A stretch of DNA of 64,000 nucleotides, from IMG/VR virus record IMGVR_UViG_2713896799_000023. The stretch is one strand, 5' to 3'. Positions 1-9,000 of this stretch are shown in pieces. The DNA is from a virus. Taxonomy: Duplodnaviria; Heunggongvirae; Uroviricota; Caudoviricetes. A program made the position numbers. Every line of letters begins with the position of its first letter. Within the stretch, counting starts at the first letter, position 1.

Positions 1-3000
1 TCAGGCTGCCAGATCATTGTTTCCGATGGAAGCATAATAAGCTTTTTCTGCTTCTGCCGGAGGAGTATGGCCCAGCCTTCCCAGCAATCGTCGATTGTTA
101 TACCAGTCCACCCACGTGAGTGTGGCCAGTTCCACTTCTGCACGGTTTTTCCAGCTCTTACGGTGTATTACCTCCGCTTTGTAAAGACCATTGATGCTCT
201 CAGCCATCGCGTTGTCATACGAGTCGCCTGTACTCCCTGTTGATGCCAGCAGTTTTGCTTCTTTTAGTCGCTCCGTATAGGCCAGTGACACATACTGAGA
301 GCCTTTATCGCTGTGATGGATGGTGCCAGACGGACGACGGGCCCACAACGCCTGCTCCAGCGCATCCAGCACGAATGTCGTTTCCATAGACGATGAGACC
401 CGCCACCCCACGATGTATCCGGCAAACACATCAATGATGAACGCCACATAGACGAAGCCCTGCCATGTGCTGACGTAAGTAAAATCAGCCACCCACAGCT
501 GGTCAGGACGTTCTGCCACGAACTGACGGTTTACGCGGTCACCTGTGGCAACGGTTTTCCGGCTGACGGTAGTGCGGACCTTTTTACCCCGGAGAACACC
601 GGCAAGTCCCATAACCGCCATGAGGCGCGCCACTGTACATCTGGCCACCCTGATTCCTTCCCGTAACAACTGACGCCAGACTTTACGCACACCGTACACC
701 TGATGATTTTCATCGTATACGCGCTGTATCTCTCTCTTCAGCCAGTCATCGCGCTGCGCACGGGCACTGCGTTTATCAGGATGATGCCGCTGCTGCTGAC
801 AATGGTAATACGTTGACGGGGCAATATGCAGTTCACTGCATACCGGTCCGACCCCGTACTGCTCACGCAGCTTATCCAGCAGTGGCATTATTTTTTCCAG
901 AGGCGGTCGAACTCCGCCTTCGCAAAATAAGCGGAAGCCTGGCGAAGGATATCGTTACTGCGGCGCAGTTCACGATTTTCACGTTCCAGCTCTTTCAGAC
1001 GCTGACGTTCAGCGGTGGTGAGCCCACCATCACCGCTCCCGGTATCCCTCTCATGCTGGCGAACCCAGACACGCAGAGTCTCTGGCGTACAGCCAATCTT
1101 TGGAGCAATGGAACAAATTGCCGCCCATTGTGAGTCATATTCGCCCTGACTTTCCAGAACCATACGAACTGCGCGTTGACGGACTTCGGGGGAAAAACGA
1201 GTATTTTTAGTCATCCTGTTTACCTCTTTCTCAGGAAGTTTAGTCTCCAGGATTTCCGGGGCGGTTCATTCAGCGACAAGCAACCAGACTTAGTTATGAA
1301 TTACCAAGCGATAAATATTGTGCATTGCTTGCTGTAATGTGTGCAAAGCTAATTGGTATTGTTGAACATCATGCGGAAGTTGGGAATATCAACCTTACGA
1401 CAAGTGAGCCAGACTTTGAATTTGACGTATACGCACAAGCAGAGGAATTTTAAAATGAATAAACACACATTAACCCGTATTTCAGAGGAAGCTTTTAACG
1501 AGCTTTGAATCGCCACGGATAATCTAGACACTTCCGAGCCGTTGATAATACTGGTTTTCATATTCTGTCGGTGACATCTGTTCGCTAGAACCATGCCGAC
1601 GCTTACTGTTATAAAACATTTCGATGTAATCAAAAATATCACTGCGGGCTTCTTCCCGCGTTCCGTAGATCTTTTTCTTTATCCGTTCACGTTTCAACAA
1701 CTGGAAAAAACTTTCTGCAACCGCATTATCATGGCAGTTACCGCGACGGCTCATGCTACCCTCCAGGCCGTGTGATTTCAGGAACGACTGCCACTCATGG
1801 CTTGTGTACTGACTGCCCTGATCCGAATGAACCAGCACCTGTTTTTCGGGATTACGCCGCCATACAGCCATCAGCAGTGCGTTCAGGACAATGTCCTTTG
1901 TCATCCGGGATTGCATGGACCAGCCGATAATTTTGCGTGAGAACAGATCAACAACAACGGCAAGATACAGCCAGCCTTCGTGGGTCCTGATGTAGGTTAT
2001 GTCCGTTACCCAACGCTCATCAGGAGCATCCGGATTGAACTGTCGCTGGAGCCTGTTGGGTGACACGATACTGGCCTCGCCTTTACGTGCCCGCGGGCTT
2101 CGGTATCCGACCTGAGCCTTTATTCCGACACGTTTCATCAGTCTCCAGACTCTGTTGACTCCGCACTGTTGCCCGCTGTCACGCAGATCCAGATGGATTT
2201 TGCGATAACCATAGACGCATCCCGATTCCAGCCAGAACTGTTTAATCTGTCCTGTCAGTCTCAGGTCTGCATGATGGCGTTGTGAATGCGGCTGCTGAAG
2301 CCAGGCGTAAAAACCACTGGGATGAACATCCAGCACCCGACAGAGCAGGCGAACAGGCCAGCAACAGGAGTTGTCACGGATAAAGGCGTACCTCAGTCGG
2401 ACAGCTTTGCGAAGTACGCCGCTGTAGATTCAATCTGTCAATGCAACACCCCTTTCAATTATCTCTTTCGGTGTTTTGAACTTCAGTGTCTTTCTCGGTC
2501 TGTTGTTTAGCTGAGCAGCAACCAGATCTAGTTCATGTTGAGTATATTGGGCAAGACATGTCTTTTTAGGAAAGTACTGCCGAATTAGCCCATTTGTGTT
2601 CTCATTTGTTCCCCGCTGCCAAGGACTCTGAGGATCGCAGAAGTAAACTTTAACGCCGGTGCTGACAGTAAATTCTAGATGTCTGGCCAGTTCCATTCCT
2701 CTGTCCCATGTCAGTGATTTTCTGAGTTCTGACGGTAAACTCAGGAATTTGTCGGTAAGAGCCTGATTTACTGAGACAGAATCTTTGCCCCTGAGTCTAA
2801 GGATGATCGTATAACGTGATTTTCGGTCTACAAGTGTGGCTATATGAGAGTTTTTTGTACCTGAGACTAAATCGCCCTCCCAATGCCCCAGAGAGCGTCT
2901 GTTATCGATATTTCGGGAACGTTCGTGAATTGGTGTTCCGTTCACTATGTTAATCGTACCTCTTTCGCCTTTGCGGGTATGACGCCTGCCATGGCGAAGG

Positions 3001-6000: not shown

Positions 6001-9000
6001 ACGGGAAACCATCAAGGTTTAATCTTGGGAATATGCTATTAGCTGGTAGTGCTATCTATGCAGGTTATGAGAGATTAGCTTCTACACCTGAACGAATGGA
6101 AGCACAAGCTAAATTACCAGAGCTAGCTAAAGAGTCTGGACTTAAACCAGTGTTCACTATGGATGATGTGAAAGGTTGGTTTAATAGTGCAGCTATGAAT
6201 CTTGCCAACTTCCAGCATCCAGAATTAAACAACATTAAGCAAGATTCAGCATTAACGAGTGCAGATATCCAAAGCCTGAGAGATGAAATTAGTGCTTTGA
6301 GCAAACGTATTCAGGAGCCTGTGAAAGTTTCACTTGGTGGTGAAGTTGCCATTAAACCAGATGAAACCAGCTTTATGACCTTTAGCAGTAATATCTACGA
6401 CCAATACGCAGAAGCTACGCTATTAAGTTCATCATTCCCAGAAGATGATTGATAATAGTCGAATGCTACGTGAATAAAGCAAAGTTAATACCCACACCAA
6501 AAATTATTTTTCACGTAGCTCACGCTTAACAGAGAAAATACTTATATATCAAAGGCTTGGTTAAAAATGATTAAAATACACTAAGTCTTTGAAATCAAAG
6601 GAGAATTTAATGATTTACACTAATCAGCTTCGTTACACTGGTAAAGATGGCGTTTACTTTCATCTACAAGGCCAACCAGATAATTTCTTGTCACTATCAG
6701 CAACTGAAAACATGGAATTTGACAGCCCTATGATGGTTACCACTCAAAATATGCAATCAGGGCAAACCGTCACAGATAATGTGCAAAGAGCACCCAGAAC
6801 AATCACTATTAGTGGTGTCGTTGTAGTTGGTGAATCCGGTAGTATCCTTATCTCAAGAGATAATAAGCTGGTGGAAAACTTCATCGACACTCTGGAAAAC
6901 TGGCGTGACCAGAAGCAGATTATTTCTGTCATCTGTAAAGACGGCATCAAGATTGATGATTCCATTATTACGAGCTTTAAAGCATCTAAAGATGTTGGAA
7001 TTTCAAACGGCCTAAGAATCCAGTTAACTTTTCAGGAAATTAACTTTAAAGCTATTGTGGGTCAGACTGATATTTCTGCTGCTACTGGAAAGACAGCTAC
7101 TACAAATGATGGTGGTGCTACCAGTAAAAAGAACACTGGCAACACTACAACGAGTCTTGGAAGCCCTATGCTGACCTGTAAAGAGCTTTTTAGCTATTCG
7201 GCAAGTGAGTTATCAGATGAAGCGTTAAAAGCCCGTGTAACGTGCTCTAAGAGCGTTAGCGTTAAAAATGGTGAGAGCACCTTCACAGCCTCAGCTAATG
7301 AGCAGGCTTCAAAAGTGCTTAAGTCGGGTAATGCTTTACGGAAATTTAGTGTGAATCCTAACAAGAAGGGCACTTACTAATTGGTATCATCTACCAATCC
7401 CTAAGCGTCTACCTCTTCCATATCACCAGCAGGATAAATCCTTGTTACTGGTTCACCAAAGATAAGCATATCATCTAGTGACTGCATCTCATCGGTTGCT
7501 TCTTCAAGCGTTAAGGTGTGGTCATCTTTACCATCAAGAGGGAAACCACGAATCATATTTCCATTGTGAAGATATATATCCACCAGCTTTTCATTACCAG
7601 AAACAACAATCTCTTTCACCAGACGCTTAATGATAATCTGGGCTTCAGTTCTCCCCTCTACAGACTCCATATCAAGACCGCTTAAATCCAAGCTTGATAC
7701 AGATTTTACCCTCGCCTTTTCTCGTGATAACTGAACTATCAGTTCATCTTTTTCTTCCTGCTTAACCCGTAGTGCTTCCTGAATCTGAGTGATGTTAGGA
7801 AGCTGTATCAGCGTCTCAGTAAGTTTTTCAAGTTCACTATCAACGGTGTTTAATCTTCTTTGTAGTTCATCTAATTTAGCTGTATCGGTAGCTTCATCGT
7901 GTAGCTGTGATAGTTTGCTAAACAGACGACTGCAAAGCTGTGTATCAAGTAACTTTCTGGACACTGTACCGTAGCTACAACGGGACTCCTTATTACCATT
8001 GCAACGGTAAGTACCTTGATAAACGGGTTTACGTATCCCTGTAGGAGTCATTACAAGCCCACACTTACAACGGATAAGCCCCTTCAGTATGTTCACATAT
8101 AGCCAGTGTTCACCGCTGGATGTTTTCCCCTTCCCTGTTTCCTCTAACAGTTGCTGTACAGCGTAAAACTTAGAATCTGTGACAATCTGAGGATAGAACG
8201 ATTCAATTTCTTCACGTAACACTGTTTTACGGTCTTCTGAAGAAATCTTGGCGGGAAGGTAACCTAATACACTTCGTGAAGTCAGGATGTGTTTAACGCT
8301 TAATGCTGACCAGTTACCTTCCGGTTTCTTGGTCTTGGATATTCTGACCTTACGCTGATTAATGGTCGGGTAACCTTGTTCGTTTAGCCATTTACAGATA
8401 GCAAACATCGACATACCAGAAAGACGCTTGTCATAGATGATATTCACCAGTGACGCTTTATCTTCATCAACGATGTAGTGTGAACCATCTTCTGATAGCT
8501 CTAACCATCCGGGGGCTTGCTTACCCATAGGCTTCTTAAGTTCTCTTGCAAGCTGTGTTTTATGGTTCCAGACCTGAGCTATACGCTTTTGTTTAACAAG
8601 AGATTCCTGATGTGCTCGCTCAGCTATGATGATGTGCTTAATCAACTTCACAGGGTCTGTCAAGGCTGACTTGTCGTAGAGTTCACCATCTCCCAGAGTC
8701 AGTATAGAGACTCCCTTCCTCAGTATCTGCCTAACGTCATCAATAGCTGTGTCGATATCTGCCCTACTGAAGCGGTCAAAGTTCTCTACAACAATCAGGG
8801 AACCTTCTGGAATAGCCCCAGACATAACATTTTCAAACATACGTCTGAAGTCAGAACCTTGAGCCTTATGTTGCTGGTGAAAACCAGATTTACCCTTATC
8901 AACGTATCTGTGAGCAGGAAGAAGGTAATAATCGTTTTTGTGCTTAGAGTAGAAAGCATCAATGAGGTTTGTTTGTCTTCTTAAGGAGTCTCCTGAGTCT

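What the first reader, a model, noticed from the sequence alone, without database searches (positions are those of the whole stretch)
1..6452. IS graveyard at the element border: tape-measure gene split by IS2 and truncated by IS911::IS30, beside a partial IS629-like copy
The tape-measure reading frame is exactly restored if IS2 and one copy of its AGCTT target duplication are removed, so that insertion is recent and simple. IS911 itself carries a complete IS30 in orfA and has no flanking direct repeat that I can see, suggesting an IS-mediated deletion or rearrangement removed the 5' part of the tape-measure gene. A tape-measure gene does not fit the short-tailed Stx prophage to the right, so this is a remnant of a different, long-tailed element.
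Basis: partly seen in the sequence, partly recalled or inferred. Interest (0 to 1): 0.4.

Follow-up and report, generated by a model that had tools for sequence, protein, structure and literature searches.

The report
IS-wrecked phage-parasite-like island beside Stx prophage
Four insertion sequences have broken up a small mobile island that sits in the wrbA gene next to a Shiga-toxin prophage. That damage is ordinary, but the island belongs to a common family I could not find described, and the family looks like a parasite of virulent Felix O1-type phages.

Summary

- **IS2:** it occupies 4467-5797 with an AGCTT duplication and splits a tape-measure (TMP) gene. Removing it restores the frame. 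Contigs with 100% identical flanks carry the empty site.
- **"IS911":** this name is wrong. The element at 1506-3957 is a 1229-bp ISEhe3-like IS3-family element with IS30 (2423-3643) nested just after its frameshift site. It has no target duplication, and about 3.6 kb is missing next to it: TMP codons 1-297 and about five upstream genes.
- **"Partial" IS629-like copy:** it is cut only by the window edge. In identical contigs it is a complete 1310-bp simple insertion with a TTC duplication.

The host element is not a decayed long-tailed prophage. It is a ~11.7-kb serine-recombinase island integrated in wrbA codons 6-8, 42 bp from the Stx2a prophage junction. Relatives occur in 9% of complete E. 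coli genomes, at wrbA or yecE. Three features tie the island to virulent Felixounavirus myophages:

- its TMP is a full-length homologue of theirs;
- its "baseplate" gene is their tube initiator (74% aa identity);
- a non-coding segment matches their terminal-repeat boundary.

This suggests a phage satellite family I did not find described. The copy in this window is dead.

The parts
1..1268 (-). IS629/IS1203-group IS3-family element. The complete element is 1310 bp; its last 42 bp lie left of the window. OrfB 1-888, OrfA 888-1214, ALIL frameshift pseudoknot 817-933. The right copy of the 3-bp TTC duplication is at 1269-1271.
   Evidence: ORFs. Rfam RF01497, 120.9 bits. Complete copy and TTC duplication in L008/L010, which are 100% identical to window 1-19044. 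OrfB clusters with proteins labelled IS1203/IS629.
1269..1505 (+). Island fragment: the last 60 codons of a 184-aa hypothetical gene (1271-1453, cut by the IS629-like insertion) and the first 17 codons of a 93-aa hypothetical gene (1455-1505, cut by the ISEhe3-like element).
   Evidence: Collinear with L001 12001-12240 and L002 8001-8240. 96.6% identical to TUM9757. Translations.
1506..2422 (-). ISEhe3-like IS3-family element, orfB part with its terminal inverted repeat.
   Evidence: Inverted repeats 1506-1543 / 3920-3957. Restored element is 1229 bp with orfA, an A7G slippery site and orfB. Intact 1229-bp copies on 706 plasmids. 'ISEhe3 orfA' label in the same cluster.
2423..3643 (-). IS30, 1221 bp, with an intact 383-aa transposase (2430-3581). 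The 2-bp duplication GC is at 2421-2422. The second copy at 3644-3645 reads AC in this copy because of a G-to-A change.
   Evidence: It differs at 3 of 1221 positions from K-12 IS30A.
3646..3957 (-). ISEhe3-like element, orfA part with its terminal inverted repeat. OrfA now reads into IS30.
3958..4466 (+). TMP gene fragment A. It starts at the codon equivalent to residue 298 of the intact 682-aa protein; codons 1-297 are deleted.
   Evidence: PF20155 is recorded for this fragment in the identical contig L010.
4467..5797 (-). IS2, 1331 bp, with intact orfA (5341-5706) and orfB (4478-5383). The 5-bp AGCTT duplication is at 4462-4466 and 5798-5802.
   Evidence: 100% identical to a PGAP-labelled IS2 in L019. 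Empty site in L011/L012.
5798..6452 (+). TMP gene fragment B, through the stop codon.
   Evidence: The C-terminal LLSSSFPEDD resembles the Bas63 TMP C-terminus.
6610..7380 (+). Intact 256-aa tail tube initiator homologue. RefSeq (PGAP) annotation of related loci calls it 'phage baseplate protein'; Pfam matches it to Dit_like.
   Evidence: PF21821. PDB 9ndy_A 'Tube initiator protein gp018', E 2.5e-114. 74% aa identity to the Felixounavirus gene just downstream of the TMP gene.
7401..9044 (-). Intact 547-aa large serine recombinase, the island's integrase.
   Evidence: Resolvase, Recombinase and Zn_ribbon_recom domains; phrog_95 integrase. The exact protein is found on many contigs.
9096..9158 (+). 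Island attR and rewritten wrbA 5' end (21 codons). The shared core GTGCTTT is at 9120-9126. K-12 wrbA homology covers 9117-9158. The Stx2a prophage starts at 9159.

Best explanation
Positions 1-9158 are one IS-damaged copy of a ~11.7-kb integrative island. The island uses a large serine recombinase to insert into codons 6-8 of wrbA and supplies a replacement wrbA N-terminus. A P13374/O104:H4-type Stx2a prophage is an independent neighbour, inserted 42 bp further into wrbA.

Three IS events, in the STEC/ETEC hybrid lineage that includes strain IH57218 (typed O2:H27), inactivated the island:
1. A 1310-bp IS629/IS1203-group element made a simple insertion (TTC duplication) into a 184-aa gene.
2. 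A 1229-bp ISEhe3-like element carrying IS30 at its frameshift site now marks a ~3.6-kb deletion. That deletion removed about five genes and TMP codons 1-297.
3. Later, IS2 made a simple insertion (AGCTT duplication) into what remained of the TMP gene.

Shown: the boundaries, the duplications, the empty IS2 site, the missing segment, and the island's integration site. Inferred: how the deletion arose. It could be intramolecular transposition, or recombination between two IS copies.

Also inferred is that intact islands of this family are satellites of Felixounavirus phages. On this reading they are packaged through a copy of the phage's terminal-repeat boundary and contribute their own tape measure and tube initiator to tail assembly.
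For: IS2:
- Boundaries and duplications.
- Frame restoration identical to an intact TMP.
- The IS2-free site in L011/L012 has 100% identical flanks.

ISEhe3-like::IS30:
- No duplication in the window, versus TGT, TGA and AGT duplications at three other sites.

Deletion:
- Both flanks are collinear with intact islands and 3,617 bp is missing.

IS629-like element:
- Complete copy with a TTC duplication in the identical contigs.

Island:
- Limits and att core determined against the K-12 empty site.
- The same gene order recurs at wrbA (L001, L002, L009), at yecE (L018, L019, L037) and in Citrobacter (L022).
- dN/dS is 0.12-0.26 for the tube initiator, 0.30-0.40 for the TMP and 0.10-0.15 for the integrase.

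Stx2a prophage:
-, and PMC4551483.

Felixounavirus link:
- Protein similarity.
- 80-83% nucleotide identity in the tube-initiator gene.
- A shared unique non-coding segment.
- That segment straddles the inner boundary of the 613-bp direct terminal repeat of phage SeKF_63.
Against: - I had no ISfinder access, so the IS names rest on depositor and PGAP labels and on 90% clusters.
- The order of the IS629-like and ISEhe3-like events is unknown.
- The deletion mechanism cannot be resolved from one end state.
- For the satellite inference, I recognised no replication or packaging genes in the island. I have no evidence of excision or encapsidation. The single IMG/VR metagenome contig of island type is an ordinary chromosomal copy.
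- Most island genes have no detectable homologue in phage JH2.
Confidence: 0.85

Rival explanations
1. One reading: the TMP gene is the last remnant of an ordinary long-tailed temperate prophage that decayed in place and was finished off by IS elements.
For: The gene is a real TMP. It sits beside an integrase and a tail gene. This copy really is degraded by IS elements.
Against: - Intact relatives are all ~11-12 kb with the same gene order, at two chromosomal sites and in Citrobacter, and use at least three different serine recombinases.
- Their genes are under purifying selection.
- Pfam, PHROGs and NCBIfam detected no capsid, portal, terminase, tube or sheath genes.
- None of 50,697 phage records has a TMP above 60% identity. 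The nearest are virulent Felixounavirus myophages.
Confidence: 0.1
2. Sub-mechanism A for the deletion: intramolecular transposition of the ISEhe3-like element into a nearby target deleted the DNA between its original position and that target (adjacent deletion).
For: There is a single IS copy, no target duplication, and both flanks keep their original orientation. The right flank begins GATTCA, repeating the IS terminal hexamer. IS3-family elements are known to insert next to sequences that resemble their own ends (my knowledge of IS911).
Against: The element's own transposase is disrupted by IS30. It would need transposase supplied in trans, or the event must predate the IS30 insertion.
Confidence: 0.45
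3. Sub-mechanism B for the deletion: two ISEhe3-like copies inserted independently in direct orientation, and homologous recombination between them removed the 3.6 kb, leaving one hybrid copy with unmatched flanks.
For: It gives the same end state. It needs no active transposase. The composite is common in E. coli: 132 genomes and 188 plasmids.
Against: It needs two insertions within one 3.6-kb stretch. No intermediate appeared among the contigs retrieved.
Confidence: 0.4
4. The IS arrangement is an assembly artefact caused by repeated IS copies.
For: Short-read assemblies often break or misjoin at IS elements. Several related contigs end exactly at IS ends.
Against: The same 19,044 bp is reproduced base for base in two independent assemblies: Finland 2015 (checked by optical map) and Korea 2023 (5 contigs). 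The duplications and the empty-site variants are internally consistent.
Confidence: 0.02

Closest known systems
IS2 (IS3 family)
   Same: 1331 bp, 5-bp duplication, imperfect terminal repeats, 121-aa and 301-aa ORFs. 100% identical to a copy that PGAP labels IS2.
   Different: Nothing notable. A second, independent IS2 sits in the same gene about 330 bp downstream in ST410-type strains.
IS911::IS30 of E. coli K-12 (insN/insI1/insO in CP4-6)
   Same: An IS3-family element with IS30 inserted at exactly the homologous dinucleotide, the first two bases of the codon after the ILKKA/slippery-site region, in the same relative orientation.
   Different: The carrier here is not IS911. It has no nucleotide similarity to it, a different OrfA, and is 1229 bp. 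It is ISEhe3-like (IS3 family, IS51 group per PMC10425158).
IS629 / IS1203
   Same: 1310 bp, 3-bp duplication, ALIL pseudoknot, OrfA 108 aa and OrfB 295 aa. It clusters with proteins labelled IS1203/IS629.
   Different: PGAP labels the exact protein only 'IS3 family transposase'. I did not resolve the isoform because I had no ISfinder access.
Phage satellites (P4-like, PICI, cfPICI, PLE, PICMI)
   Same: For the intact island family: small size (~11.7 kb), own integrase, site-specific integration, spread across genera, and a short sequence homologous to a unique cis-acting region of one phage group. P4 cos matching P2 cos is the analogy.
   Different: The candidate helper is a virulent Felixounavirus. 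The integrase is a large serine recombinase. The only recognisable structural cargo is a tape measure and a tube initiator. I recognised no capsid-remodelling, terminase small subunit or primase-replicase genes. None of this has been tested experimentally.
Felixounavirus tail module (Bas63 gp17 TMP and gp18 tube initiator, PDB 9ndy)
   Same: Same gene pair in the same order. The tube initiator is 74% identical. The TMP is homologous over its full length, with conserved N- and C-termini (PMC12609058).
   Different: The island TMPs are 682-710 aa against 742-747 aa in the phages, and only about 28% identical overall. The pair sits in a chromosomal integrative island without the rest of the tail genes.

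Membership tests
IS2 | 1331-bp element with imperfect terminal inverted repeats and a 5-bp target duplication | tested here: met
   4467-5797; AGCTT on both sides; inverted-repeat pair I1.
IS2 | Sequence identity to a reference IS2 | tested here: met
   100% over 1331 bp to the L019 copy that PGAP labels 'IS3-like element IS2 family'. Not compared with ISfinder.
IS30 | 1221 bp, a single ~383-aa transposase, terminal inverted repeats, a 2-bp duplication | tested here: met
   2423-3643; 383-aa ORF; inverted-repeat pair I3. The GC duplication is intact in four other copies; one base has changed in the window copy. 3 of 1221 differences from K-12 IS30A.
IS911 | Nucleotide and OrfA similarity to IS911 (the K-12 IS911A reference) | tested here: not met
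   blastn aligns only IS30 and about 20 flanking bases. The OrfA sequences clearly differ.
ISEhe3 (IS3 family, IS51 group) | Identity to the ISfinder ISEhe3 reference (AF327445) | tested here: inconclusive
The restored 92-aa OrfA is in the same 90% cluster as proteins deposited as 'ISEhe3 orfA'. A paper lists ISEhe3 orfA as 92 aa.
ISEhe3 (IS3 family, IS51 group) | TG...CA ends, two ORFs with a -1 frameshift, a 3-4-bp duplication | tested here: met
   The restored 1229-bp element has TGAATC...GATTCA ends and an A7G slippery site. 3-bp duplications are present at three other loci, but not in the window.
IS629/IS1203 | 1310 bp, 3-bp duplication, ALIL frameshift pseudoknot, OrfA/OrfB of the IS629 type | tested here: met
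   The window holds 1268 bp; the remaining 42 bp were seen in identical contigs.
Tail tape measure protein | TMP domain (PF20155 / TIGR02675) and homology to TMPs confirmed by structure | tested here: met
   Intact relatives. The window fragment against PDB 9ndy_F, E 1.4e-32. Only residues 298-682 survive here.
Decayed tailed prophage | Other morphogenesis or lysis genes, or variable deletion remnants, in related copies | tested here: not met
   Intact relatives hold only the TMP and tube initiator among recognisable structural genes, and they share one conserved architecture.
Phage satellite | Own integrase and site-specific integration, in an element too small to be a phage | tested here: met
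   Large serine recombinase. The att core GTGCTTT lies in wrbA; relatives split yecE. Size ~11.7 kb.
Phage satellite | Carries the helper's packaging or other cis-acting signal | tested here: inconclusive
   All 8 islands examined share a 40-158-nt segment with a site that is unique in JH2 and straddles the terminal-repeat boundary in SeKF_63. Its function is untested.
Phage satellite | Helper-dependent induction, replication and transfer in phage particles | not testable with these tools
   This needs infection experiments. The one virome-database contig of island type is a chromosomal copy.
Known anti-phage defence systems | Match to PADLOC models | tested here: not met
   Only an orphan methyltransferase and weak HTH hits.

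The most novel reading that the evidence does not exclude
The element the IS copies have wrecked belongs to a family of phage satellites, or tail-interfering islands, that I did not find described and that targets virulent Felix O1-type myophages. The family consists of ~11.7-kb serine-recombinase islands found in about 9% of complete E. coli genomes, and also in Citrobacter, E. albertii and Shigella. Each carries a copy of the helper's terminal-repeat boundary, its own shorter tape measure, and a tube initiator 74% identical to the phage's. These features suggest they are packaged by the phage and either build or sabotage its tails. The copy in this window would be a dead member.
Probability: 0.35. 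Interest if true: 0.75.

Novelty: new variant of a known kind. Interest (0 to 1): 0.42.

Why it matters
The IS history by itself matters little. It is routine genome decay in an IS-rich STEC/ETEC lineage. It is useful mainly as a set of lineage markers (IS2 present or absent, Stx phage present or absent) and as a correction to annotation: RefSeq (PGAP) records of related loci label these genes as separate 'tape measure', 'baseplate', 'transposase' and 'recombinase' genes with no element named.

What could matter is the host island. If the family really parasitises Felixounavirus, it would be a satellite of a virulent coliphage and Salmonella-phage group that is widely used for typing and biocontrol. 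It would also be the first satellite I know of whose structural cargo is a tape measure plus tube initiator. That would bear on phage-therapy host range and on how satellites exploit tail assembly.

The island also shares wrbA and yecE with Stx phages. Tandem occupancy can therefore confuse assays that type Stx-phage insertion sites.

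Tried and rejected
- **Exact look-up of the 191-aa TMP::IS2 fusion ORF:** not on record. I used the recombinase instead.
- **No complete RefSeq E. coli genome covers 80% or more of 1-9000**. The source lineage is present only as GenBank assemblies found through.
- **One search was a poorly chosen search.** It only showed that ymdF is universal.
- **PADLOC** gave no defence-system match.
- **The 236-aa protein that PGAP calls 'transposase'** has no hit in Pfam, PHROGs, NCBIfam or PDB. 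I could not submit it for structure prediction because it is deleted from the window.
- **Tai tail-assembly-inhibition systems** (PMC11364771) were considered and dropped. They have no TMP or Dit component.
- **Literature searches** for wrbA/yecE serine-recombinase islands, or for satellites of Felix O1-type phages, found no description.
- **Test for a packaged concatemer:** I checked whether an IMG/VR metagenome contig (L037) was a concatemer of the island. It is a single chromosomal copy.
- **I first read the ISEhe3::IS30 composite as one ancestral unit that transposes whole.** weakens this. The IS30 parts are nearly identical, while the ISEhe3 parts differ by about 2.4%. Repeated IS30 insertion at a hot spot is at least as likely.
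- **An apparent excess of IS hits in the TMP gene** is not claimed as significant. Several comparison loci were selected through their IS content.

Full report
**Scope.** I checked the stated features at 1-6452 and then followed the host element to its ends, which lie outside those coordinates.

**IS2.**
- Inverted repeats and sequence place IS2 at 4467-5797 (1331 bp, minus strand). AGCTT lies on both sides, at 4462-4466 and 5798-5802.
- Removing IS2 and one AGCTT gives a continuous 385-codon frame. It reads ...RVRAFFDEVTLAYRGLTDEQKKVVDALGSGL... across the junction.
- That stretch is identical to the intact 682-aa tape-measure protein (TMP) of a related island. The whole fragment is 87% identical to residues 298-682 of that protein, without gaps.
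- Direct proof of a simple insertion came from public contigs. L011 and L012 match the window at 100% on both sides and carry a single AGCTT and no IS2.
- The IS2 copy has intact ORFs. It is 100% identical to an IS2 in an ST410-type strain.

**The "IS911::IS30" element.**
- The element at 1506-3957 has 38-nt terminal inverted repeats. It contains a complete IS30 at 2423-3643.
- Removing IS30 and one 2-bp duplication restores a 1229-bp IS3-family element. It has a 92-aa OrfA, an A7G slippery site, and OrfB in the -1 frame.
- It is not IS911. The K-12 IS911A::IS30A locus aligns only over IS30 and about 20 flanking bases, and the OrfA sequences differ.
- The restored OrfA clusters at 90% with proteins deposited as "ISEhe3 orfA". 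A paper lists ISEhe3 OrfA as 92 aa. ISEhe3 is an IS3-family, IS51-group element with 3-4-bp duplications. I had no ISfinder access, so this name is provisional.
- Intact 1229-bp copies occur on 706 plasmids across Enterobacterales.
- The 2452-bp nested form, with the same internal junction, occurs in 132 E. coli genomes and on 188 plasmids. Three of the four other copies I examined have perfect 3-bp duplications (TGT, TGA, AGT). The window copy is flanked by CTT and GAT.

**The deletion.**
- Window 1269-1505 is collinear with L001 12001-12240. Window 3958 onward is collinear with L001 from 15858. About 3,617 bp is therefore absent.
- The lost DNA holds most of a 93-aa gene, three to five small genes including the one PGAP calls "transposase" (in some relatives also an HNH endonuclease), and TMP codons 1-297.
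- Both flanks keep their orientation, so this is a deletion and not an inversion.
- I cannot tell whether it arose by intramolecular transposition or by recombination between two copies.

**The IS629-like copy.**
- Contigs L008 (LFZJ01000011) and L010 (JAQJCX010000001) are 100% identical to window 1-19044 and extend 2.6 kb further left.
- They show a complete 1310-bp element, window -41 to 1268. It has a TTC duplication and collinear flanks, so it is a simple insertion into a 184-aa gene.
- Rfam finds its ALIL frameshift pseudoknot at 817-933.
- "Partial" was an effect of the window edge.

**Source and timing.**
- The two identical contigs come from STEC/ETEC hybrid strains: IH57218 (O2:H27, Finland) and MFDS1007784 (Korea).
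- The first paper reports a P13374-like Stx2a phage in wrbA. The window agrees: 9117 onward is 100% identical to O104:H4 strains, and the 319-aa ORF at 45189-46148 is Stx2A.
- L011 and L012 have the ISEhe3-like/TMP junction and the Stx phage but no IS2. The deletion therefore predates IS2.
- L013 has IS2 but an uninterrupted wrbA. Stx phage gain or loss is therefore independent of the IS2 event.

**The host element.**
- Comparison with the K-12 empty site shows that related islands (L001, L002) occupy about 11.3-12.6 kb between ymdF and wrbA. They share a GTGCTTT core at both ends.
- The crossover lies in wrbA codons 6-8. The island supplies a new start and N-terminus for wrbA.
- In the window, wrbA homology runs from 9117 to 9158 and the Stx prophage follows. 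The two elements sit in tandem, 42 bp apart.
- The family has a conserved order: small invertase-like recombinase, Dam methylase or AP2 protein, several small unknown genes (some copies add an HNH endonuclease), a 236-aa unknown, TMP (682-710 aa), a 256-aa "baseplate" protein, and a convergent large serine recombinase.
- The same architecture splits yecE, using a different recombinase (507 aa). It also occurs in Citrobacter with a third recombinase.
- Homologues of the 256-aa gene occur in 495 of 5,426 complete E. coli genomes, always on the chromosome, at 68-93% identity.
- dN/dS values of 0.12-0.40 show that the family's genes are maintained by selection. This does not fit a decaying prophage remnant.

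**Link to Felix O1-type phages.**
- No phage record has a TMP above 60% identity. The best full-length matches, at about 28%, are Felixounavirus myophages.
- The 256-aa protein is 74% identical (80-83% at the nucleotide level) to the Felixounavirus gene immediately downstream of the TMP gene. It matches PDB 9ndy_A, the Bas63 tube initiator gp18, at E 2.5e-114 (PMC12609058).
- The island TMP keeps the phage-like N-terminus (44% over 85 aa) and the C-terminal LLSS(S/A)(F/Y)PE motif. In Bas63 that motif contacts the baseplate hub.
- About 750 bp from attL, all eight islands examined carry a non-coding segment with the core GATATTTT...TTTTGCAAAGGGGGTG. The source genome has it at about window -2352 to -2198.
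- This segment matches a site that is unique in phage JH2.
- In phage SeKF_63 the record ends are a 613-bp direct repeat, and the matching site straddles its inner boundary.
- In about 13 of 45 sampled Felixounavirus records the site lies within about 2 kb of a record end. In several records it occurs at both ends.
- A copy of a helper's terminal or packaging region is what a satellite would need.
- This is circumstantial evidence. I recognised no replication or packaging genes and have no evidence of encapsidation.

**Mechanism and verdict.**
- The finding describes real, ordinary IS events. One IS was misnamed and one call of "partial" was an edge effect.
- The interpretation that a different element was truncated by an IS-associated deletion holds.
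- The element itself is more interesting than proposed. It is a dead member of a common island family that looks like a Felixounavirus satellite or tail-interference element. I found no description of this family in the searchable literature.
- I rate the IS history itself as low interest and the family as a lead worth an experiment.

Noticed in passing
window 2421-2422 / 3644-3645; L003 (K-12) 2540-2541 / 3763-3764: IS30 sits at exactly the homologous dinucleotide in two unrelated IS3-family elements: the ISEhe3-like element here and IS911 in K-12. In both, it occupies the first two bases of the codon after ILKKA, just past the frameshift heptamer, in the same relative orientation. Across five nested copies the IS30 parts differ by 0-1 bases, while the ISEhe3 parts differ by about 2.4%. 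This suggests repeated insertion at an IS30 hot spot rather than one ancestral composite.
   Followed up: partly
window 1506-3957; L004-L007: The 2452-bp ISEhe3-like::IS30 unit occurs intact in 132 E. coli genomes and on 188 plasmids of Raoultella, Citrobacter, Enterobacter and Klebsiella. It has 3-bp duplications at different sites even though its own transposase gene is interrupted. It may be mobilised in trans.
   Followed up: partly
window 3952-3963: The right flank of the ISEhe3-like element begins GATTCA, directly repeating the IS terminal hexamer (GATTCAGATTCA). The flank is native TMP sequence. This may reflect insertion next to an end-like sequence, or it may be chance.
   Followed up: no
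L019 9847-11177; L002 11959-13268; L022 6960-8927: The TMP gene of this island family is interrupted by other IS elements in other lineages: a second IS2 about 330 bp downstream (AGTCT duplication) in ST410-type strains, an IS629-like element in a chicken isolate, and an IS21-family element in Citrobacter. The loci were partly selected through their IS content, so I claim no enrichment.
   Followed up: partly
window 9096-9158; L018/L019 yecE: The island family uses wrbA and yecE, both classical Stx-phage integration sites. At wrbA it rewrites the gene's first codons and leaves the Stx phage site 42 bp downstream still usable. The two elements therefore stack in tandem.
   Followed up: partly
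L011, L012, L013 versus window 4467-5797 and 9159: Near-identical genomes show three of the four possible combinations: IS2 present with the Stx phage, IS2 absent with the Stx phage, and IS2 present with an intact wrbA. This implies gain or loss of the Stx2a phage within the lineage, independent of IS2.
   Followed up: partly
L010 reverse complement 248-402 (window about -2352 to -2198); JH2 about 84.75-85.0 kb: A non-coding segment with iteron-like GTTAAG repeats and a GGTAGA/TCTACC hairpin is shared by the islands and by a site that is unique in Felixounavirus genomes, at the terminal-repeat boundary. It lies outside the window but inside the same island.
   Followed up: yes
window 9664-18084 (minus strand): A 2806-aa ORF with LPD38, MuF_C, LPD1 and LPD5 domains lies at the left end of the Stx2a prophage, next to a hok/gef-type gene. 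It is 100% identical to the O104:H4 phage over the stretch compared (window 9117-12000). I did not study it further.
   Followed up: no
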